Made by a program: the position numbers and the translations under genes
The notes under the pieces: generated by a model
The model's input: only the letters and a program-made list of their open reading frames with translations
What the model was told of the DNA's origin: nothing
The model's database searches: none
Origin: Candidatus Saccharimonadia bacterium
Lineage (GTDB): Bacteria > Patescibacteriota > Saccharimonadia > UBA4664
Direction of reading: 5' to 3'
Length of the DNA stretch: 26,738 bases
Assembly (NCBI GenBank): GCA_036266515.1
Contig: DATAMV010000111.1
Coordinates: 1 to 26,738, forward strand
In this document: positions 6,125 to 15,817 of the stretch, in pieces
Position numbering within the stretch: the stretch's first letter is position 1
Layout: every line of letters starts with the position of its first letter

Positions 6125-7021
6125 ATGGCCCATGACCAACACCAAATGCAGGACCCCACCAAGCAGCATCCCAAGCCACCGTTTGATACACCGATGCAGC
6201 CCGAGCCGGGGCTGGCCAGTAAGATGCGGCCAAAACCTGATCACGGGGAAGACAGCTACCGAGGTAGCGAGCGGCTCAAGGGCCGCAAAGCCCTAGTGAC
6301 CGGCGGTGATTCCGGCATTGGGCGGGCGGTGGCGATCGCATTTGCGCGCGAGGGGGCCGATGTGGTCATAACCTACTTGCCCGACGAGCAAAGCGACGCC
6401 GATGAGGCCATGGTGTCGCTTCAGGCCACCGGCCAAAACGTCGCTGTCATACCGGGCGATCTGACGGACGAAAAATTCTGCCGGCGGCTGGTGGAGCAGG
6501 CTGTGGAGAAATTGGGCGGCCTGGATATCCTGGCAAATGTGGCCGGCAAGCAAATCTCCCAGGAAGCGATCGCCGACCTCACCACCGAGCAGTTTAAGCA
6601 AACGTTCACCGTGAACGTGTATGCCATGTTTTGGCTTTGCAAATATGCCTTACCGCACATGGCGGCGGGGGCCACCATCATTAATACATCATCGATCCAG
6701 GCTTACCAACCGTCACCCTCGCTGCTGGATTATGCGCCCACGAAGGCCGCCATCCGGGCATTCACACAGGCTCTGGCAAAGCAGGTGGCGGGCAAGGGAA
6801 TCCGGGTGAATGCCGTAGCGCCCGGGCCGGTCTGGACACCGCTCCAGCCGAGCGGGGGCCAGCCTCCGGAAAAGGTGGCCAAGTTTGGTTCGAACACGCC
6901 TCTCGGCCGGCCCGGGCAACCCGCCGAGGTGGCGCCGGCCTATGTGTTCCTCGCCTCGCAGGAATCAAGCTACATCACCGGCGAAATGCTGGGCGTCACC
7001 GGCGGACAGCATCTAAGCTAA
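6125..7021 (+). CDS. SDR-family NAD(P)-dependent oxidoreductase (YdaD/YghA-like general stress type)
   Basis: TGGDSGIG Rossmann motif, YAPTK (YxxxK), [10 protein letters not shown], Pro-rich N-terminal extension '[22 protein letters not shown]'; SD AAGGAGG. Confidence 0.93.
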
Positions 7022-8520
7022 GGCTGCGGCAGTCCATAAGGTTTGAGCTCGGCAGCCTTGTCTTGAAGCAAGTTCCTAGCCTGGTCGCGGGAGGAGTTCC
7101 ACGACTGCCAATGGGGAGCCGGTGCTTCAACCTCGCTGCGGCGGTAAAGCTCTTCTCCGAGCGTTTGTTTATCGTCGCGGGAGGTGGCCTCGAAAGCCGC
7201 GATGAGTTGCGGGAGGGCGTCGTCGGACAGCCGGGCGAGGTAGGCGCTATCAATCTTGCCGGTAGAGTGGAAGCGGTCGAGGTTGGCGCGGGCAATGAAG
7301 GCGTCGGGGCTTAGCAAATTCATAGCCACCACAAAGGCAATCACCGCAATGAAGGCCGGTAGCGCGAATATGGGCTCTGAGGCGTCTTTGAGGATTTTGT
7401 ACAGGAGGATGAGGAAGATTACGGCCAGCAGCACGGTGAACGCGTGACTGTAAAGGCGCAGGGTCGTGAAACCGTAGGCTTGTTCGTACAAGTACAAGCG
7501 CTTGAAGGCTGAGGCCATGATAAGGATCACTTGCAGCACAAGCGCGCCGGAAAGCAGCCGGAACGCGCGGGTGTGGCCGGCTTTGCCCTTGGCTACAAAT
7601 TGGTCCCCCGCCCATGCCAGCCCAAAGGTTAGGAGCGCTACGGCAATGAGCTCAAAGAAGCCTTTGCGCGCGTATTCGGCGTAGGTAAAGCCTTGGGCCG
7701 AGATATTGTGCTGCCCGCCAAACAGGTAGGCAAACTGGATCACGATGAAGGCAAAGAACAGCACATTGAGGGAGCCGAACAAGATTGAGCTTTCGATGGG
7801 GCCGAGCACGCGGGACTTGGGTGCCGGCGCGGGCGCCTCTTCGGTTTTGCCGGAGCGGATCAGGGTGTAGCTGTAGGCGCCTATGAGACCAAGCGTGGCA
7901 ATGCCGACCAGCACTACGCGCACCAGGGTCTGGGGAGTGATGCTGAAATTAAACAGGGACGTGAGGTAGCGGTGTACCACCAGGTCGGCAGACGAGAACA
8001 GCAGCACGAAGATCACGAGGAACGGTACCGTGAGCGCAATGCCTTTGAGCACCTGGACGGTGGTGGGCTGGTTCTTGGCGGCGCGCGGCAGGGCCACGAG
8101 CTCAGCCAGGGTTTTGCCGAGTGGTGGGCTGAATTTTAGCACCAGCAGCGGCACGCGCAGGTATTGGCCGACGCCGTAGCTCGTTAATTTGGGTCCAAAT
8201 GACACCGCCGCGATCAAGAGCATGAGCGCTACGGTTGCGCCGAGGTTTAGCAGCGTGAGCAGGTCGCTCGTGTGCACGGCCACCATAATGCTAAAGAATG
8301 CCAGAGGTACCAGCAGCCAGAGGACGGCCTTGGCCACCGGCTGGCGCAGGGCAGCGCGGAGTACAAAAAAGCCGCCCATAACGGCGGCCACGTACAACGG
8401 AAAAGACAGCCCAGGCATTTGGTGCCAAAACATCACATCAAACAGGATGCCCAGCATGAGTGACACGCCAGTAATGGCTAGGGCCGCGGTGAATGTTTTT
8501 GGCTGGTCTGAACGTTTCAT
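7018..8520 (-). CDS. DUF4153/DUF4173-family polytopic membrane protein (start likely ATG 8520; ORF extends to 8532)
   Basis: Motifs '[13 protein letters not shown]', '[19 protein letters not shown]', '[10 protein letters not shown]', 'YLARLSDDA'; TG-G-TACAGT lies 10 nt upstream of ATG 8520. Confidence 0.8.
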
Positions 8521-8570
8521 TGTGGCCATCACTGTACCACAATATGAAGAGTTTTTCCAGATGTGGGAGT

Positions 8571-8732
8571 CTACTTTTTCTTCGGCGCCCGGGGCACTTT
8601 CTCCCCTTCTTCGCGGGCCTTGCTCAGGCCCACGGCGATAGCCTGTTTGCGGCTTTCGAATTTACCTTCGTGTTTGTGTTCGTGAAGCATTTTTCCGACT
8701 TCCTCTTGGGCTTTGGGTCCGTATTTAGCCAT
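8571..8732 (-). CDS. Small basic protein, DUF6496-like (53 aa)
   Basis: MAKYGPKAQ...SRKQAIAVGLSKAREEGEKVP signature; SD AAGGAGGT upstream of ATG 8732 (the track's 8756 start is probably too long). Confidence 0.8.
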   Translation of the reverse strand: MAKYGPKAQEEVGKMLHEHKHEGKFESRKQAIAVGLSKAREEGEKVPRAPKKK

Positions 8733-8797
8733 GACGTGCACCTCCTTTATCACCATTTAAGGATGCGGTCGGAGCCCATGTAATTCTTTGGACGAAT

Positions 8798-9313
8798 TTA
8801 TAGAAATACGTCCACGTCGGCCTCGAGCAGAATGAGAGCCCGGCCGGTGGACTGGTAGGCAGTGGCGCCCCGGACCTCGAAGCCAAGGCCGGTGTAATAC
8901 TTTACGAGTCCATCCGGTACCGCTACCGTATCGCCGCGCAAAAGTGACCGCCGGTTTGCGCGGGCTTGCTCTGCCGCAAACCGGAGCATGCGCCGACCTA
9001 CTTGTGGCGGCGCGGAAGCCGGGTCTTTGATGAGTTTGTGGCAATATAGTGCCTTCCCGTCCCGGCCTGCATTCCCCCAGACGCTACTGTGGTCGGACAG
9101 GCAAATGGATGCAACGATCGTGCCACTCGGGCCACGCAGGACGTGACACCTCCCCGCTTCAACGGCCCGCTGGAGGTCTTTGTACGCCATATCGACAGCG
9201 TTCCACGTGCGGGTTCCGGACCGGGCCAGCGAATAGTCATTGGCCGCATCGAACAACCGTTTTAGCTCGGGAAAATCAGCAGCCTGGGCCGGCTGGATTG
9301 CTAGGCCGGCCAT
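8798..9313 (-). CDS. GNAT-family N-acetyltransferase
   Basis: Motif A-like 'QVGRRMLRFA', 'LVKYYTGLGF'; start overlaps the kinase stop region. Confidence 0.8.
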   Translation of the reverse strand: MAGLAIQPAQAADFPELKRLFDAANDYSLARSGTRTWNAVDMAYKDLQRAVEAGRCHVLRGPSGTIVASICLSDHSSVWGNAGRDGKALYCHKLIKDPASAPPQVGRRMLRFAAEQARANRRSLLRGDTVAVPDGLVKYYTGLGFEVRGATAYQSTGRALILLEADVDVFL

Positions 9314-9353
9314 AGTGCTTTGAGGCCGTTGGCGGCGGCGATATCGGCTAGAG
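9301..9353. repeat. Copy 1 of a diverged 53-bp direct repeat (3' end of the kinase gene)
   Basis: 41/53 identical to 10239-10291 by manual alignment; encodes LADIAAANGLKALWPA*. Confidence 0.85.
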
Positions 9354-10239
9354 TTTTGTCAAAGGCGGGTTTGCCCATTTTTAGCAGGTTGTCCGCGAAG
9401 CCGAGGCGCAGGGTGATGCGCTCGGTATTTTTGGGAGGGGCTTTGAGCTCGAAGAAAAGTGACAGCCGCACGCACATATAAATGAGCGCTGGGAATAACT
9501 TGGCTCCTTCTTCAGCCGTAAGGGTTCGGTGTTTGGTGTACCCCTGCAGGAATCGGCAGCACAGTTCAAAAGTGTCATCGCGGCCAAAGTAGCTCATGAT
9601 CATTGCGCCGGCAATGTCAAAAATAAACTCGCCGTAGCCGGCGTGCTCAGGGTCAATAAAACCGAGCAGTTGACCGTCTTTGGCATACAAATTATCCGGG
9701 CACACATCATGGAATACAAAGCCCTCGGGCAGGTCGTGCACTTCCTCGATGTAGGCCCGGTATTTCTCATACTTTGCCCGGGTTGGCTCGTCGAGCTGTT
9801 CCAGGAGCCCGAGACAGCGTTCGCGGCTATCCCAGGCTGGAGCAAGCTCGGCCTCGCTAATTTGCGTGATATGGAGTTTCGCGACTAATTCGCCCATTGC
9901 CTCAGCCATAGCGGGGTTAACGGCCGGCTCCGTGAGGGTCTCAAATGGAAATACAAGAATTTTTTGGCCATCGATTTCCGTAACCACCTGGCCCATATTG
10001 TTTTTGAGCGGCGCGATGGTTTGAAGACCGGCGCGCTCAATATTCGCGTAAAACTTTTCCTGGCGGGGAAGATGCTTGTACTGCAAGGGCGGAATAATTT
10101 TCATAAAGTAGGGTCCGGCCGCTGTTTTGACCGCCAGGTTCGTATTGCCGGAGCCTTTGCCCACTGGCTCGATTGAAATGATGGATGCGAGGCCCGAGTA
10201 AAAATTCCGTAGCTTTTGCGGTAGGCCGGCGAGGTCCAT
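9301..10239 (-). CDS. APH/type II homoserine kinase (ThrB)-like phosphotransferase
   Basis: GSGNTN P-loop, YFMK, catalytic loop FHDVCPDN, GFIDPE, DIA; ATG 10239 overlaps the upstream TAA (TAATG). Alternative GTG start at 10251. Confidence 0.82.
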   Translation of the reverse strand: MDLAGLPQKLRNFYSGLASIISIEPVGKGSGNTNLAVKTAAGPYFMKIIPPLQYKHLPRQEKFYANIERAGLQTIAPLKNNMGQVVTEIDGQKILVFPFETLTEPAVNPAMAEAMGELVAKLHITQISEAELAPAWDSRERCLGLLEQLDEPTRAKYEKYRAYIEEVHDLPEGFVFHDVCPDNLYAKDGQLLGFIDPEHAGYGEFIFDIAGAMIMSYFGRDDTFELCCRFLQGYTKHRTLTAEEGAKLFPALIYMCVRLSLFFELKAPPKNTERITLRLGFADNLLKMGKPAFDKTLADIAAANGLKALWPA

Positions 10240-10291
10240 TAGGCCAGCCACAGGCTCTTGAGGCCGTTGGTGGTGGCGATATCCGCCAGGG
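10239..10291. repeat. Copy 2 of the diverged 53-bp direct repeat (3' end of the amidohydrolase gene)
   Basis: Encodes LADIATTNGLKSLWLA*; 12/16 aa identical to the kinase C-terminus. Confidence 0.85.
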
Positions 10292-11231
10292 CATCAAGGT
10301 CGTAGTAGCGCTGGCCCTCCAGCAGGAAGCGCAGTTCGGTCCACATGTCGCCGTCAACGAACGGTTTGTAGAGGTCCTGGATATTATCGGTCCCGATACA
10401 CACGGTAACCCCGGCTGCCATCATCTCTTTTACTGGGGTCATGGCGTTGTGAATGGGGCCGATAACGTCATGATCCATGAGAGCAACGTGGCTATTGTCG
10501 ATCCAGCCGTCCGGACAAGCCACCACCATGACGCCGGCGTCCACCAGCTTTTTATATAATTCAAAGCGATACTCACGGGCTTGGGCCCCCACTGAAATAC
10601 AATGGACGGCTGCTACCTTGCCCTGGTAGCCGTGTTCGATGGTTTTCTTAATGAGTAGTTCGGTGTCGCGCTGGTCGGGCACATTGTATTGGTCCACGTG
10701 GACATGCAGCGGCTTGCCACCGTTTTTCTTGGCTGCTTCAAACAGAATGTCTAAGTGTTCGGCCTCGTGGCCGGCGTCTTTTTCCGGCAAGCCACCGATG
10801 ATGTCCACAAACTCAGCACCAATTTCGAACCATTTGCGGGCCTCGGGCTCTATGACGCCTTTAACCACCTGGTTTATAAATTTGATCTGAATTTTGTCGC
10901 CATAATTCTCACGTAGGCGCTTGGCGGCTTGGATGGCCTTGTCTTCAATGACAGGGTCTACGTCGATAAACGTACCGATGGCCTGAACACCCTGCTCGAT
11001 TTGCTTCTTGAGGGCGTATTCCATATTGGCGTAAATATCATCCACCGTGGCAGCTTTTTTGTACTTGTCTGGGTAGTCCCACTTCTGCTGGAGCGATCCG
11101 TTGACCAGATGGAAGTTCTCTTCATTCAAAATGAATGCGCGGTCGATGTGCGCATGGGCGTTGACCCAACCGCCTTTGGCCTTCACTTTATCTAGGACCA
11201 GTTGCTTGGGGTTGAAATCGTGGCTGTTCAT
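10239..11231 (-). CDS. Metal-dependent amidohydrolase, cytosine-deaminase (CodA/AtzC)-like
   Basis: HxH (NAHAHID), HVHVDQ, AVHCIS, GTDNIQD metal/catalytic motifs; terminal 'TTNGLKSL' helix; 330 aa. Confidence 0.85.
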   Translation of the reverse strand: MNSHDFNPKQLVLDKVKAKGGWVNAHAHIDRAFILNEENFHLVNGSLQQKWDYPDKYKKAATVDDIYANMEYALKKQIEQGVQAIGTFIDVDPVIEDKAIQAAKRLRENYGDKIQIKFINQVVKGVIEPEARKWFEIGAEFVDIIGGLPEKDAGHEAEHLDILFEAAKKNGGKPLHVHVDQYNVPDQRDTELLIKKTIEHGYQGKVAAVHCISVGAQAREYRFELYKKLVDAGVMVVACPDGWIDNSHVALMDHDVIGPIHNAMTPVKEMMAAGVTVCIGTDNIQDLYKPFVDGDMWTELRFLLEGQRYYDLDALADIATTNGLKSLWLA

Positions 11232-11232
11232 C

Positions 11233-12033
11233 TTAGGTTTTCTCCAAGGTGTTAATAAGGCAGTGGATGCCGCCGCCGGACTTATTAAACTCTCCTACTT
11301 CCACTTCGATAACTTTGCGGCCAAGTTTTTCGAGCTTTTTGCGAAAAGTGGGATTGCCGGCTTGTAATATCACTGTATCACCCGAGACGAGCGAGTTGGC
11401 GGAAAAGCCCTCGGCTTCGGTGCGGCTCATCTCATGCAGGTTGGGAATAAGCTTCTTGAGCAGGCCCTGAGAATTTTCGCTAAAAGCCGGCGGGTAGTAA
11501 AAGGCAGTATCGGCGTCGAGCGGCAGAAAGCAGGTGTCGAGGTGGTAAAACAGCGGGTCAACGAGACGCACCGGCACCACGTCGATGCCGAGGTTGTCGG
11601 CCAGCTCTTCGCATGAAGCGACATTGGCGCGAAAGCCCGTGCCAACGATGAGCATCTTGCCAACAAAAAGGGCGTCGCCGCCCTCAAAGTTGAAGATCTT
11701 GGTGAGTTCGCGCGGTTCAAAACCATGCTCGCGGAACCAGGCCCGGTAGTAGCGCGTTTCGGGTTTGCGTTCTGGGTAGCGGAAGTTGGCCATGAGCACG
11801 GTACCACCTTCGACAATTCCTTGGTCGGTGGCGAACACCATGTCTGGGACGTCGGGCTTTTGCTCGATGATCTCGACCTTAACCCCCTGGCTCTCGAGGG
11901 CCGCCACCAGGCCCTCCCATTGCTGCATGGCAAGGGCCTGATCTACGGCGTGGGGCTTCATGTGGGGGTTAATGATGTACTCGACGTCGAAATACGTTGG
12001 CCGGCACATCAGGACCCGCTTGACGCGCTGCAC
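11233..12033 (-). CDS. Pentein/amidinotransferase-superfamily hydrolase (DDAH / ArgZ N-domain-like)
   Basis: LMCRPTYFDVEYIINPHM, PDMVFATD, FEGGDA, FYHLDTC (catalytic His), GGGIHC (catalytic Cys). Confidence 0.9.
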   Translation of the reverse strand: MQRVKRVLMCRPTYFDVEYIINPHMKPHAVDQALAMQQWEGLVAALESQGVKVEIIEQKPDVPDMVFATDQGIVEGGTVLMANFRYPERKPETRYYRAWFREHGFEPRELTKIFNFEGGDALFVGKMLIVGTGFRANVASCEELADNLGIDVVPVRLVDPLFYHLDTCFLPLDADTAFYYPPAFSENSQGLLKKLIPNLHEMSRTEAEGFSANSLVSGDTVILQAGNPTFRKKLEKLGRKVIEVEVGEFNKSGGGIHCLINTLEKT

Positions 12034-12039
12034 TGGTGG

Positions 12040-13680
12040 TTAGACCTTGGCCTTTACGAGTTTGGCGACCACTTCCTGGGCAACCGCCAGGCTGGTGATA
12101 AGCGGAGTGTCGGTGGCTACGGCCTTTTCGCGGATGACTTGACCGTCGGTCTTTTCTTTCTCAACAGTTTCTTCGCGCTCGGTTTTGGTCGGGATGTTGA
12201 CGATGATGTCGAAGCGCTTGGCGTCGAGCATGTCCGAGAGGTTCGGCTTAAGCTCTGGTGTGGAGATCTTGTTGACCAGGATGGCTTCGATGCCATTGGA
12301 GAGCAGGAACTTGTGGGTCTTGTACGTGGCGTAGAGCTGGTAGCCCATGGCAGCCAGGTGCTTGACCTGGGGCAGGAACTTGAGCTTCATGTCGCGGCCA
12401 CCGATAGCGAGCAGGGCGGTGCGCTGGCGGCGCTGGGCCATGCGCATCTGGGCGGTGTAGTGTTCGATGAAGCCGGCCGAGGCGTTCTGGTTGAAGTTGT
12501 CGTTGCGGGTATCCATGAAGGTAGCCAGCTTCTCGTTGAAGATGGTGTTTGGTGTTTCGACCGCGACGGCTTCGATGTGGCCCTTGTAGAGCTTGAGGGT
12601 GACGGTGCCGGTGATTTTCTCGTTGGCTTTTTCGATGTAGGCGTAGAGGTCAGCCATGAGCGGCTCGAACCAGAGCGCGCCGTAGCAGAGGTAGGCCCAT
12701 TTTTCATCCACGATGGATTTGAACTCGTTTTCGAGCCGAGTCGAGGTGTAGCGCTCGAGAGCTTTGTGGCCGGTGATGATGGTTTCGGCGGCCGGGGCTT
12801 CATAGAGGCCGCGGACCTTGAGGCCGATCACGCGGTCTTCGAGCAGGTGAACGATACCCACGGCGTGCTTGGCGGCGCGCTCGTTGAGCTGCTCGATCAT
12901 GGCGACTAGGCCCATCTCCTTGCCGTCGACGGCCACGGGCAGGCCTTTTTCGAATTCAAGCGTGATGTATTCGGGCTTGTCGAGTGCCTCCTCGGGAGTG
13001 CGGCAGACTTGCAGGATTTTCTCGAGCGGCGGAATGAGGGCGGGATTTTCAATTTCGCCGCCTTCGCCGGTCACGCCCCACATATTGTCGTCGTAGGAGT
13101 AGGGCTTGTCTTTGGTTTGCTTCACTGGGATACCGTGAGCCAGGGCGTATTCAATCTGCTCGTCGCGGCCCATAGACCATTCGCGGACCGGAGCGATGAT
13201 TTTGATGTCGGGGTTGAGGGCGAGGGCTGAGCCTTCCATGCGGATCTGGTCGTTGCCCTTACCCGTGGCACCGTGAGCAATGGCGTCGGCGCCTTCTTGC
13301 GCCGCAATCTTGACGGCCCACTTGGCGAGCAGCGGACGGCCGAGGGGCGTCGAGAGGTAGTAGCGGCCCTGGTACATGCCGTTGGCCTTGATGCTCTTGG
13401 CCAGGTATTCGTTGGCAAATTCTTCTTTGGCGTCAACGACGATGGCCTTGACCGCGCCGAGCTTGAGGGCCTTTTCGCGGATGGCCTCAAGGTCGTCGGT
13501 TTGCTGGCCGATGTCGATGGTGAGGGCGATGACCTCGGCTTTGTAAACTTCCTGAATCCACTTCACCATTGTGGAGGTGTCGAGGCCCCCGGAGTAAAGC
13601 AAGACGACTTTTTTGACTTCGCCTTTCTTACCTTCGTAACTGGCGACTTTGACGTACTCGCTCTTGTGTTCCATGCCCAT
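12040..13680 (-). CDS. argG: Argininosuccinate synthase fused to a C-terminal MGS-like (CarB allosteric-type) domain
   Basis: LYSGGLDTS, HGATGKGNDQIR, YSYDDNMWG, EDRVIGLK.RGLYEAP; residues ~421-546 read ALLAI..D.K...ATYKT...LVNK...IIVNIP...DGQVIRE.A (MGS-like). SD GGAGGT 8 nt upstream. Confidence 0.93.
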   Translation of the reverse strand: MGMEHKSEYVKVASYEGKKGEVKKVVLLYSGGLDTSTMVKWIQEVYKAEVIALTIDIGQQTDDLEAIREKALKLGAVKAIVVDAKEEFANEYLAKSIKANGMYQGRYYLSTPLGRPLLAKWAVKIAAQEGADAIAHGATGKGNDQIRMEGSALALNPDIKIIAPVREWSMGRDEQIEYALAHGIPVKQTKDKPYSYDDNMWGVTGEGGEIENPALIPPLEKILQVCRTPEEALDKPEYITLEFEKGLPVAVDGKEMGLVAMIEQLNERAAKHAVGIVHLLEDRVIGLKVRGLYEAPAAETIITGHKALERYTSTRLENEFKSIVDEKWAYLCYGALWFEPLMADLYAYIEKANEKITGTVTLKLYKGHIEAVAVETPNTIFNEKLATFMDTRNDNFNQNASAGFIEHYTAQMRMAQRRQRTALLAIGGRDMKLKFLPQVKHLAAMGYQLYATYKTHKFLLSNGIEAILVNKISTPELKPNLSDMLDAKRFDIIVNIPTKTEREETVEKEKTDGQVIREKAVATDTPLITSLAVAQEVVAKLVKAKV

Positions 13681-13724
13681 GGGGGTCTACCTCCGTTCAT
13701 TATTCGGACACATTATCGCCAGCT

Positions 13725-13751
13725 ATTATAGCACAAAATTGGAAAAATCAA
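13725..13751 (-). promoter_or_regulatory. Extended -10 promoter of the argG operon (TGTG-C-TATAAT; TTGATT at short spacing)
   Basis: Minus strand: TTGATT-15 nt-TATAAT with TGTG immediately upstream; -10 at 13725-13730. Confidence 0.65.
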
Positions 13752-13802
13752 GTGTTTTTTTCGAAAAATGGCCTAATTTAGAGCATTTTGAGGTGCTTTT
13801 TG

Positions 13803-14951
13803 CTATTTTTTCTTAAACCTGGTGCGGCTACCATGATGGCTGCCCTGAATGTTCTTTGGCCGAGGCATAAGGCTCTTAACGTCAATGGCCAGCTCGGGAT
13901 TCCAAATAACGGCGGTGGCGGCCTGCACCATGTCGGCGCCGGCGTCACGGTAGGCTTGGTAGTCAGCTGGATTCATGACGCCGCCGATGCCAATGATGGC
14001 AAAACGAAGGCCCAGCCGCTCGCGCAACTCGGCGAGGCGGCGGGTCATGTCGAGGCCGGCCCACTTAATGCCGGCGCCGCATAGGCCGGTACGGTCGCGG
14101 CCGGGCAGGGCCGGCTCGCCGTCCGGTGTCACGACCGAGCCCGGGATGGTGTTGACCGCGGCGACGGCGGCAACGAGCGGGGCGACGGCCCGCATGATGG
14201 TTTCGAGTAGCTCCTGCTGATCCGGTGCGTAGTAGCCAAGCTTTATGATCAGCGGGGTTTTGCCGGCGGCTGTCCGGCAGCGGCGCACGATGTCCGTGAC
14301 GGCGCCGGGCGAGTAGCACAGCACGCCCTCGCCGCTCACGTTGGGGCACGAAAGGTTGATCTCGATTGCCGGGGCGCCGGCCTGGACCGCGAGCTTTACG
14401 GCTTCGGCGAAGTCATTGTAATAATCCTCAGTGGAGAAGCCGGGCTGAATGGTGCCTTGTACCGACATGATTACCATTTGGCCGCGCTTCACGGCGGCAA
14501 GGCACCGGGCGTAGTCCGGCATCCAAAACTCGGGCCCGCGCGACGGCACGGCAAATGAGTTGGTAATAGTGAGCCGGCTGAGGTCGGGGTCGTCTCCCAC
14601 GGCGTGCGCCACTAGCGGCTTTTTGGCTTGATCGAGGGTAAGGTCACCGTCCACATCCACGGCCAATACATTAGGAAACGGGTTAACTTCAAAGGCGACG
14701 GTGCGCTGGGTTTTGTAGGTAACGAGGTCAAAGCCTTTATTAAGAGCGGCGATCACGTATTTGGCGTTGAGTAGCGGTCCGGCGGCTATGCCAAACGGCG
14801 AAAACATCGGCCGGCCAAAGAAATTAAACTGCGGCCGCCCTTTGTCGTGGTATGGAATAGGCAGGGCGAATTCGCCGAACGGGCCATGGTCGAAATTCTC
14901 AGCATAGGTTTTGGCGGGATCGTAGATGGGTTGTTGGCCTGAACTGAGCAT
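13803..14951 (-). CDS. pyrD: Dihydroorotate dehydrogenase-like FMN oxidoreductase (class 1-type, divergent)
   Basis: GIAAGP, TYKT, ITNS, EINLSCPN (catalytic Cys), IIKL, VNT, GLCG, IIGIGGV, VQAATA; next to pyrF/pyrE. Could instead be a dihydropyrimidine dehydrogenase-like enzyme. Confidence 0.72.
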   Translation of the reverse strand: MLSSGQQPIYDPAKTYAENFDHGPFGEFALPIPYHDKGRPQFNFFGRPMFSPFGIAAGPLLNAKYVIAALNKGFDLVTYKTQRTVAFEVNPFPNVLAVDVDGDLTLDQAKKPLVAHAVGDDPDLSRLTITNSFAVPSRGPEFWMPDYARCLAAVKRGQMVIMSVQGTIQPGFSTEDYYNDFAEAVKLAVQAGAPAIEINLSCPNVSGEGVLCYSPGAVTDIVRRCRTAAGKTPLIIKLGYYAPDQQELLETIMRAVAPLVAAVAAVNTIPGSVVTPDGEPALPGRDRTGLCGAGIKWAGLDMTRRLAELRERLGLRFAIIGIGGVMNPADYQAYRDAGADMVQAATAVIWNPELAIDVKSLMPRPKNIQGSHHGSRTRFKKK

Positions 14952-14995
14952 GGTAGTTTATAGGATAGCATAAGCTGGGAAAGGCACCTGTAATC

Positions 14996-15817
14996 GTGAA
15001 CTTTGCGGCCAAATTAGCCAAGTCCGTTGAGCGCTCAAACTCACTGCTGTGTGTGGGGCTTGACCCCGGCGTGGCTAAGCTCCCGAAGAGCATGCCCGAC
15101 CAATTTGAATTTAATAAAGCCATTATTGAAGCCACGCATGATCTGGCGAGTTCATACAAACCGAATGCGGCGTTTTATGAGGCGCGGGGTGCTGACGGCA
15201 TCGAGGCACTCAAGCGCACATGCGACTACCTGCGCGAAACCTACCCCGAAATCCCGATCGTATTTGATGCCAAGCGCGGCGACATCGGCAACACGAATGC
15301 CGGCTACGCTGAGTACGTGTTTGAATACCTGGGCGCCGATGCCGTGACCGTGGCGCCCTACATGGGCAGCGAGTCGCTTGAGAAATTCTTGGAATGGGAA
15401 GGTAAAGGCATTATTGTACTCTGCCGCACCTCAAATCTCGGGGCCGGTGAGTTTCAGGACCTCATGGTCGGCGGCGAGCCGTTGTATATGCATGTGGCCA
15501 AACGCGTGAGTTCGGCTTGGAACAGCCGCGGCAACTGCGCGCTGGTGGTGGGTGCAACCTATCCGAAGGAGCTGGCCGAGGTGCGCGCGGTGGTCGGCGA
15601 CGCCATGCCGATTCTGATCCCGGGCATCGGCGCACAAGGCGGCGAGGTGGCAGCCAGCGTGGAAGCCGGCCTAGGCGGCGGCCACGCACCAATTATGATT
15701 GCTACCTCTCGGGCCATTATTTTTGCATCCGACGGCGAGGATTTTGCCGAGGCCGCCCGGACTGAGGCCCAGAAATTGCGCGATGAAATTAACCGCTACC
15801 GGAAGGAGACCGCATGA
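14996..15817 (+). CDS. pyrF: Orotidine-5'-phosphate decarboxylase
   Basis: LCVGLDP, YKPNAAFYE, DAKRGDIGNT (DxKxxDIxxT), LCRTSN, VVGAT, LIPGIGAQGG, SRAII. Confidence 0.95.
   Translation: MNFAAKLAKSVERSNSLLCVGLDPGVAKLPKSMPDQFEFNKAIIEATHDLASSYKPNAAFYEARGADGIEALKRTCDYLRETYPEIPIVFDAKRGDIGNTNAGYAEYVFEYLGADAVTVAPYMGSESLEKFLEWEGKGIIVLCRTSNLGAGEFQDLMVGGEPLYMHVAKRVSSAWNSRGNCALVVGATYPKELAEVRAVVGDAMPILIPGIGAQGGEVAASVEAGLGGGHAPIMIATSRAIIFASDGEDFAEAARTEAQKLRDEINRYRKETA

What the first reader, a model, noticed from the sequence alone, without database searches (positions are those of the whole stretch)
9301..10291. Kinase gene carries a copy of the amidohydrolase 3' end: 53-bp diverged direct repeat including the coupling junction
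Seen: 9301-9353 and 10239-10291 are 41/53 identical, giving two unrelated enzymes the C-termini LADIAAANGLKALWPA* and LADIATTNGLKSLWLA* (12/16 aa). Four codons plus the stop differ only synonymously. The overlapping frame of each copy gives the next ORF the start MAGL. Established: 'T.NG.K.L' is the native last helix of amidohydrolase barrels. Inference: the kinase was inserted between amidohydrolase and GNAT with duplication of the 3' end, preserving translational coupling. The synonymous bias hints that the shared amphipathic tail is now selected, e.g. as a docking or assembly tag.
Basis: partly seen in the sequence, partly recalled or inferred. Interest (0 to 1): 0.68.

Follow-up and report, generated by a model that had tools for sequence, protein, structure and literature searches.

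The report
Kinase tail borrowed from neighbouring gene
In one tiny-genome (Patescibacteria) bacterium a kinase gene was inserted behind an amidohydrolase gene and now ends in a leftover copy of that gene's last 16 codons; this is a real but one-off insertion scar, with no good sign that the shared tail works as a docking tag.

Summary
The repeat is real: 41/53 nt, the best diagonal in the window (next best 34), with sharp edges that end at the stop codon. The insertion reading holds. Five related kinases lack the tail. Seven related loci join this PRK06886-family amidohydrolase directly to the GNAT, with no kinase. None of 73 other amidohydrolase loci repeats the gene end. One kinase homologue lies in a separate amidohydrolase-EamA-kinase operon with its own native end, which suggests the kinase arrived already linked to an amidohydrolase, by homology-assisted recombination (inferred). 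The 'selected tag' reading is not supported. dN/dS is about 0.36 but not significant (p 0.08-0.12). The kinase copy carries three changes away from the family consensus (T6A, T7A, L15P; Pro occurs in 0/115 orthologues). L15P is silent in the overlapping GNAT frame, and one 'synonymous' change makes the GNAT's ATG. In the model, half the tail simply replaces the kinase's last helix. 'Preserved coupling' is uncertain: the kinase may start at TAATG, and no relative has the 13-nt overlap. The scan has noted similar insertion-duplication relics in other genomes. Ordinary mechanism, small twist, low interest.

The parts
10239..10291 (-). Repeat copy 1: last 16 codons and TAA of the amidohydrolase (final two short barrel helices). 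Holds a possible GTG start (10251) and the TAATG stop/start junction (ATG at 10239) of the kinase
9301..9353 (-). Repeat copy 2: displaced amidohydrolase 3' end, read in frame as the kinase's last 16 codons and TAG. Holds the GNAT start ATG at 9313 (13-nt overlap)
10239..11231 (-). Amidohydrolase, NCBIfam PRK06886 (NF005365, 436 bits, cut-off 340); cytosine-deaminase/AtzC-like barrel; nearest relatives 77-81% identical, the named ones mostly Saccharimonadia
9301..10251 (-). APH/ThrB-II-like kinase (PF01636), 312 aa from ATG 10239 or 316 aa from GTG 10251; catalytic Lys, HDxxxDN and DxE motifs present; rare family; homology to relatives ends at about GKPAF (9375-9361)
8798..9313 (-). GNAT-like gene; weak Pfam hit alone (E 0.084), 8 of 9 aligned family members hit PF00583; its homologues directly follow the amidohydrolase in seven other loci
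11233..12033 (-). Upstream operon gene: dimethylargininase/arginine-dihydrolase-like amidinotransferase-fold protein
12040..13680 (-). First operon gene: argininosuccinate synthase fused to an MGS-like domain

Best explanation
The repeat is an insertion scar. The ancestral operon was argG-MGS, amidinotransferase, amidohydrolase, GNAT (shown by comparison). A kinase gene entered behind the amidohydrolase, and the junction at the kinase's 3' end fell about 50 bp before the resident amidohydrolase stop. The resident gene end, which carried the GNAT start, was pushed downstream. It replaced the last 2-8 codons of the kinase in frame, and now supplies the kinase's stop and the GNAT's ATG (structure shown; order of events inferred). 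The most likely route is recombination with DNA from a closely related lineage in which the kinase already followed this amidohydrolase: homologous pairing in the amidohydrolase plus an illegitimate join, or a single crossover of a small circle (inferred, about 55-60% among routes). The fusion survived because one amphipathic helix replaced another (model-based inference). The tail is tolerated and lightly constrained by the kinase's last helix and by the overlapping GNAT start. It has no tag function.
For: Kinase homologues P0002-4, P0126 and P0127 end 2-8 residues after the junction with unrelated tails; none of the other 152 kinase sequences checked has the tail motif. Direct amidohydrolase-GNAT junctions occur in L003, L005, L011, L014, L015, L020 and L088. 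The window's enzyme lies inside a 98/92-supported clade with four of them. No repeat of the gene end occurs in 73 other loci (best self-match 66% or less). Kinase homologue P0126 (43%) lies in an amidohydrolase (same PRK06886 family, 49%)-EamA-kinase operon with a native end. The repeat stops at the stop codon, as expected for two amidohydrolase gene ends. The two copies share rare traits (Trp14 in 11/115, Ala16 in 5/115) and are closer to each other (35/45 nt) than orthologous tails usually are (mean 28). AlphaFold2 continues the kinase's last helix through residue 303; the last residues have low confidence. Experimental precedent: PMC3240628.
Against: The donor configuration (this amidohydrolase lineage directly followed by a kinase with its native end) was not found. 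The kinase was not found in 50 amidohydrolase-bearing genomes, apart from distant APH hits. No mosaic break is visible in the amidohydrolase by identity or GC3. No close relative of the locus is available, so the route cannot be fixed. dN/dS below 1 (0.36) leaves room for some selection on the kinase tail.
Confidence: 0.8

Rival explanations
1. Scar first, then selection: the captured helix now works as a docking or assembly tag, for example by binding in place of the amidohydrolase's own last helix, so that kinase and amidohydrolase form a complex.
For: dN/dS about 0.36 between the copies. The NGLK core and Leu13-Trp14 are kept. A second amidohydrolase-kinase operon suggests that the two enzymes are functionally linked.
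Against: The excess is not significant (Fisher p 0.08-0.12). Even with all four silent changes placed on the kinase branch, P = 0.095 under neutrality. The kinase tail scores on the amidohydrolase-tail profile at the level of the lowest 7 of 119 orthologues, while the amidohydrolase's own tail is average. Leu/Ile15 (113/115 orthologues) became Pro, a change that is silent in the GNAT frame. The kinase in the other amidohydrolase operon has no such tail. The arrangement was seen once only.
Confidence: 0.07
2. Local tandem duplication and later deletion, with no outside donor: a segment with the kinase and the amidohydrolase was duplicated, and a deletion fused the kinase to the end of the second amidohydrolase copy. 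The end product is the same scar.
For: The copies share lineage-specific traits and are closer than most orthologue pairs. Kinase and amidohydrolase have similar GC (0.54, 0.53) and GC3 (0.63, 0.67).
Against: No further remnant of the amidohydrolase end and no second close kinase copy in the 83%-complete genome. It needs a duplication breakpoint right at the amidohydrolase stop. It does not explain the separate amidohydrolase-kinase operon.
Confidence: 0.2
3. Decayed integrative element: an integrase targeted the amidohydrolase 3' end and brought a replacement sequence, as e14 does at icd; only the kinase cargo is left between attL and attR.
For: The geometry is the same as for att sites inside protein genes: intact gene on one side, displaced 3' fragment on the other (PMC10111431, PMC6379469).
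Against: No integrase gene in the 938 bp between the copies or among the nearby ORFs examined. The only PF00589 match in the genome is on another contig. No other amidohydrolase locus shows an end duplication within about 5 kb. Neither gene was found in viral contigs.
Confidence: 0.07
4. Chance or convergent similarity of two helical C-termini, or an assembly artefact.
For: Both are short amphipathic helices in GC-rich DNA.
Against: 41/53 against a window maximum of 34 and a stop-anchored genome background of at most 25/48. Third positions are shared too. Kinase homologues have no such motif. Copies that differ at 12 positions are not a collapsed repeat.
Confidence: 0.01

Closest known systems
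Homology-facilitated illegitimate recombination and single-crossover insertion-duplication (PMC3240628; model for Vibrio cholerae T6SS effector displacement, PMC5361080)
   Same: A homologous anchor brings in a foreign gene, the resident downstream gene is kept and shifted, and a piece of the anchor gene's end can be duplicated (109-950 bp in the E. coli experiment, PMC3240628).
   Different: Here the duplicated piece is about 50 bp and is read in frame as the end of the incoming gene. The event is single, not a repeated array. The donor was not observed.
Integration into protein-gene 3' ends with a replacement sequence (e14 at icd, leaving icd'; PMC6379469, PMC10111431)
   Same: Target gene intact, displaced copy of its 3' end on the far side of the inserted DNA, copies slightly diverged.
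   Different: No integrase, no island, no second occupied site found. The displaced fragment is translated as part of the cargo gene instead of being a pseudogene.
Shared C-terminal sorting or docking tags on unrelated proteins (e.g. bacterial microcompartment encapsulation peptides, CTERM sorting signals; from own knowledge)
   Same: Short amphipathic helix at the end of two unrelated enzymes of one operon.
   Different: Such tags recur on many proteins and lineages and are appended to complete folds. This one is the native barrel end of one enzyme, occurs on a kinase once, and is drifting.
ThrB-II homoserine kinase / APH phosphotransferase family (PDB 2ppq; NF003558)
   Same: Fold (TM 0.74) and catalytic motifs.
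   Different: 78.9 bits against a cut-off of 271, so not a homoserine kinase by membership; substrate untested.

Membership tests
Insertion-duplication scar (homology-assisted insertion) | Direct repeat of a resident sequence on both sides of a foreign gene | tested here: met
Insertion-duplication scar (homology-assisted insertion) | Empty-site allele exists in relatives (amidohydrolase joined to GNAT) | tested here: met
   seven loci
Insertion-duplication scar (homology-assisted insertion) | Inserted gene's relatives lack the repeated sequence | tested here: met
Homology-facilitated illegitimate recombination | Donor with the anchor gene linked to the cargo gene | tested here: inconclusive
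   A distant amidohydrolase-EamA-kinase operon exists; no close donor found
Homology-facilitated illegitimate recombination | Mosaic anchor gene or microhomology at the illegitimate junction | tested here: inconclusive
   No break in identity or GC3; the kinase's original end is unknown
Integrase-mediated island at a protein-gene 3' end | Integrase gene inside or beside the element | tested here: not met
Integrase-mediated island at a protein-gene 3' end | Same site occupied by other elements in other genomes | tested here: not met
   73 loci, up to 5 kb flank, some shorter
C-terminal docking/assembly tag | Recurs on unrelated proteins in several lineages | tested here: not met
C-terminal docking/assembly tag | Purifying selection on the tag in its new host protein | tested here: inconclusive
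   dN/dS 0.36, p 0.08-0.12; drift from the family profile
C-terminal docking/assembly tag | Tag-dependent binding shown by experiment | not testable with these tools
   needs a pull-down with tail deletion
PRK06886 amidohydrolase (NF005365) | Score above curated cut-off | tested here: met
   436.4 vs 340 bits
Homoserine kinase type II (NF003558, TIGR00938) | Score above curated cut-off | tested here: not met
   78.9 vs 271; 60.9 vs 255.9

The most novel reading that the evidence does not exclude
A scar caught in the act of becoming a function: the kinase has captured its operon partner's terminal barrel helix and uses it to dock on the amidohydrolase by helix exchange, so that one recombination event created both the operon link and a protein interface.
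Probability: 0.07. Interest if true: 0.65.

Novelty: new member of a known kind. Interest (0 to 1): 0.2.

Why it matters
As it stands it is a clear example of how a small-genome bacterium adds a gene to a tight operon without breaking either neighbour: the displaced gene end supplies the newcomer's stop codon and keeps the next gene's start. It also gives a lead on function, because this rare kinase family sits behind the uncharacterised PRK06886 amidohydrolase in two distant lineages. It would matter more only if the tail were shown to mediate binding, which would document the birth of an interface in one step.

Tried and rejected
Complex prediction of the full amidohydrolase with the kinase gave no answer (score 0.00, mark 0.32); it is not counted for or against binding. 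Searches for a second genome with the fused arrangement found none: kinase profile in 400 class genomes, 400 phylum genomes (two distant hits), 50 amidohydrolase-bearing genomes (three distant hits), metagenome contigs (one locus, already known), viral contigs (none). The amidohydrolase, argG and GNAT were not found with these queries in the same-genus and same-family genomes searched, so no close comparison was possible. A general cassette or hot-spot mechanism that copies the gene end was rejected: the slot after the amidohydrolase varies between genomes but shows no end repeats. A second 'shared tail' pair on contig C212 proved to be antisense shadow ORFs of a repetitive gene. Mosaic tests on the amidohydrolase were uninformative. 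The promoter/terminator scan found no sigma-70 site and nothing notable at the junctions. Four paper searches found mechanism precedents but no report on this locus. Searches were input errors.

Full report
Observation. The window is one whole contig of a 1.15-Mb, 83%-complete genome. Its amidohydrolase is closest to proteins of Saccharimonadia and other Patescibacteria, so the host is taken to be a patescibacterium (inference). On the minus strand lie argG-MGS (12040-13680), an amidinotransferase-fold gene (11233-12033), an amidohydrolase (10239-11231), an APH-family kinase (9301-10251) and a GNAT-like gene (8798-9313). The two 53-nt segments match at 41 positions; the next best diagonal in the window has 34. 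The edges are sharp, and the right edge is the stop codon. In a stop-anchored test of 4856 ORF pairs in the genome the background reaches 25/48; this pair has 38 and is the only outlier that is not a paralogue pair or a shadow ORF.

Which gene owns the tail. The motif L-x-x-I-A-T-x-N-G-x-K-x-L closes nearly all of 119 close amidohydrolase homologues and forms the last two short helices of the barrel in the model (residues 312-326, pLDDT 97). The same region aligns to the end of the barrel in cytosine deaminase 4r7w. The five nearest kinases (29-49% identical) align up to G-K-x-x-[FI] and then end within 2-8 residues with unrelated sequence. None of the other 152 kinase sequences checked has the motif. 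The tail therefore moved from amidohydrolase to kinase.

Ancestral gene order. Seven loci join the amidohydrolase directly to a homologue of the window's GNAT (31-46% identical): L003, L005, L011, L014, L015, L020 and L088; L019 has one gene between. In a maximum-likelihood tree of 67 amidohydrolases (short or broken rows left out) the window's enzyme lies in a supported 11-row clade with four of these and a 24-row clade with all eight. The kinase is rare: four close homologues in the protein databases, none in 400 class genomes, none close in 50 amidohydrolase-bearing genomes. No other of 73 amidohydrolase loci repeats its own gene end (some flanks are short), so this is one event, not a cassette system.

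Route. One close kinase homologue, P0126, lies in an AT-rich operon amidohydrolase-EamA-kinase. Its amidohydrolase belongs to the same PRK06886 family (49% identical) and its kinase has a native end. The other three close homologues are in unrelated or uninformative contexts. Two occurrences of a rare kinase behind a rare amidohydrolase suggest a real linkage. This makes it plausible that incoming DNA already had the order amidohydrolase-kinase. Pairing in the amidohydrolase and an illegitimate join about 50 bp before the resident stop gives exactly the observed structure, and explains why the repeat ends at the stop. Homologous recombination at one end with an illegitimate join at the other is established, and single crossovers in the same experiments duplicated 109-950 bp of the target gene's end (PMC3240628). 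A similar displacement model is proposed for V. cholerae T6SS arrays (PMC5361080). The two copies share rare traits and are closer than most orthologous tails (35/45 nt against a mean of 28 and a maximum of 37), so any donor was a near relative, or the copy arose locally. No mosaic signal was found. The route is inference; the scar itself is well supported. An integrase route has the same geometry (PMC10111431, PMC6379469), but no integrase is near the locus and neither gene was found in viral contigs.

Is the tail selected as a tag? Over 16 codons dN is 0.17 and dS 0.48 (ratio 0.36), Fisher p 0.08-0.12. One copy has been under amidohydrolase selection throughout, so a ratio below 1 is expected anyway. 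Polarised by orthologues, three amino-acid changes fall on the kinase copy: T6A (3/115 orthologues), T7A (5/115) and L15P (0/115). One falls on the amidohydrolase copy (A12S). On a profile of amidohydrolase tails the kinase copy scores at the level of the lowest 7 of 119; the native copy is average. If all four silent changes are given to the kinase branch, neutrality is still not rejected (P 0.095). The silent changes also have other readings. CTG/CTA is GTG/ATG in the overlapping frame and makes the GNAT start. L15P is silent in the GNAT frame. Two silent changes sit in the first two codons at the junction edge. The AAG-AGC/AAA-GCA block could be one compensating slip (sequence shown, reading inferred). 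In the kinase model the helix runs from 290 to 303, so the first half of the tail replaces the kinase's own last helix turns, and confidence falls to 65 and 43 in the last two blocks. Homologues have hydrophobic residues at matching positions. Light structural constraint plus the GNAT start is enough to explain the pattern.

Coupling. The GNAT's ATG at 9313 is credible: its N-terminus has the same length as that of L014. But in the seven kinase-less loci the GNAT starts 0-13 nt after the stop, so the 13-nt overlap is lineage-specific. For the kinase, GTG 10251 gives 18 residues to the conserved Tyr (homologues 17-18) and the TAATG ATG gives 14. Either is possible. MAGL follows automatically from the codons for L-W-x-A-stop, so its presence in both copies is not independent evidence.

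Function of the genes. The kinase has the ThrB-II/APH fold (2ppq, TM 0.74) but is far below homoserine-kinase cut-offs. My best guess is a small-molecule kinase acting on a substrate or product of the amidohydrolase pathway (inferred from the two operons; low confidence). The operon lies near pyrD-like, pyrF and pyrE genes here and in relatives; earlier scan notes propose a link to pyrimidine synthesis, which I did not test.

Verdict. Observation confirmed; insertion with duplication of the gene end supported; preserved coupling uncertain; docking tag not supported (about 7%). It is a new member of a known kind, with the small twist that the displaced fragment is translated as the cargo gene's C-terminus. 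Interest 0.2.

Noticed in passing
L083:130-2992 and L101:2-1916: A separate AT-rich (36% GC) operon PRK06886 amidohydrolase - EamA transporter - same kinase family; a second, distant amidohydrolase-kinase linkage that may help to find the substrate of both enzymes.
   Followed up: partly
window 7018-15817; L002-L021, L085-L089: In most relatives the argG-MGS / amidinotransferase / amidohydrolase operon ends facing a convergent DHODH-like gene, and the slot between them holds variable genes (GNAT, LOG-like, membrane proteins, a second DHODH-like gene). In the window the DHODH-like gene and pyrF-pyrE lie upstream of argG instead, so the region is rearranged.
   Followed up: partly
window 8798-13680: argG, amidohydrolase, kinase and GNAT were not found with these queries in six same-genus genomes or the same-family genomes searched (80-100% complete for the genus), so the operon may be a horizontal acquisition of this genome or lost in its kin.
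   Followed up: partly
window 9691-9711: The window's kinase has H-D in the catalytic loop (HDVCPDN), whereas its four closest homologues have D-D at this place.
   Followed up: no
window 10689-10700: The amidohydrolase has H-V-D-Q where cytosine deaminase has H-C-D-E; Gln181 is invariant in 35 aligned homologues. Noted before by the scan.
   Followed up: partly
window 8798-9313; L003, L005, L011, L014, L015, L019, L020, L088: The GNAT family behind the amidohydrolase is divergent (invariant AN..W and RxD...L..YY...GF) and largely missed by Pfam; it recurs with the operon across the clade.
   Followed up: partly
window 10222-10239: Just inside the kinase, the 9-mer GCCGGCCTA recurs 9 nt after the ATG, identical to the GNAT start region; possibly chance.
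   Followed up: no
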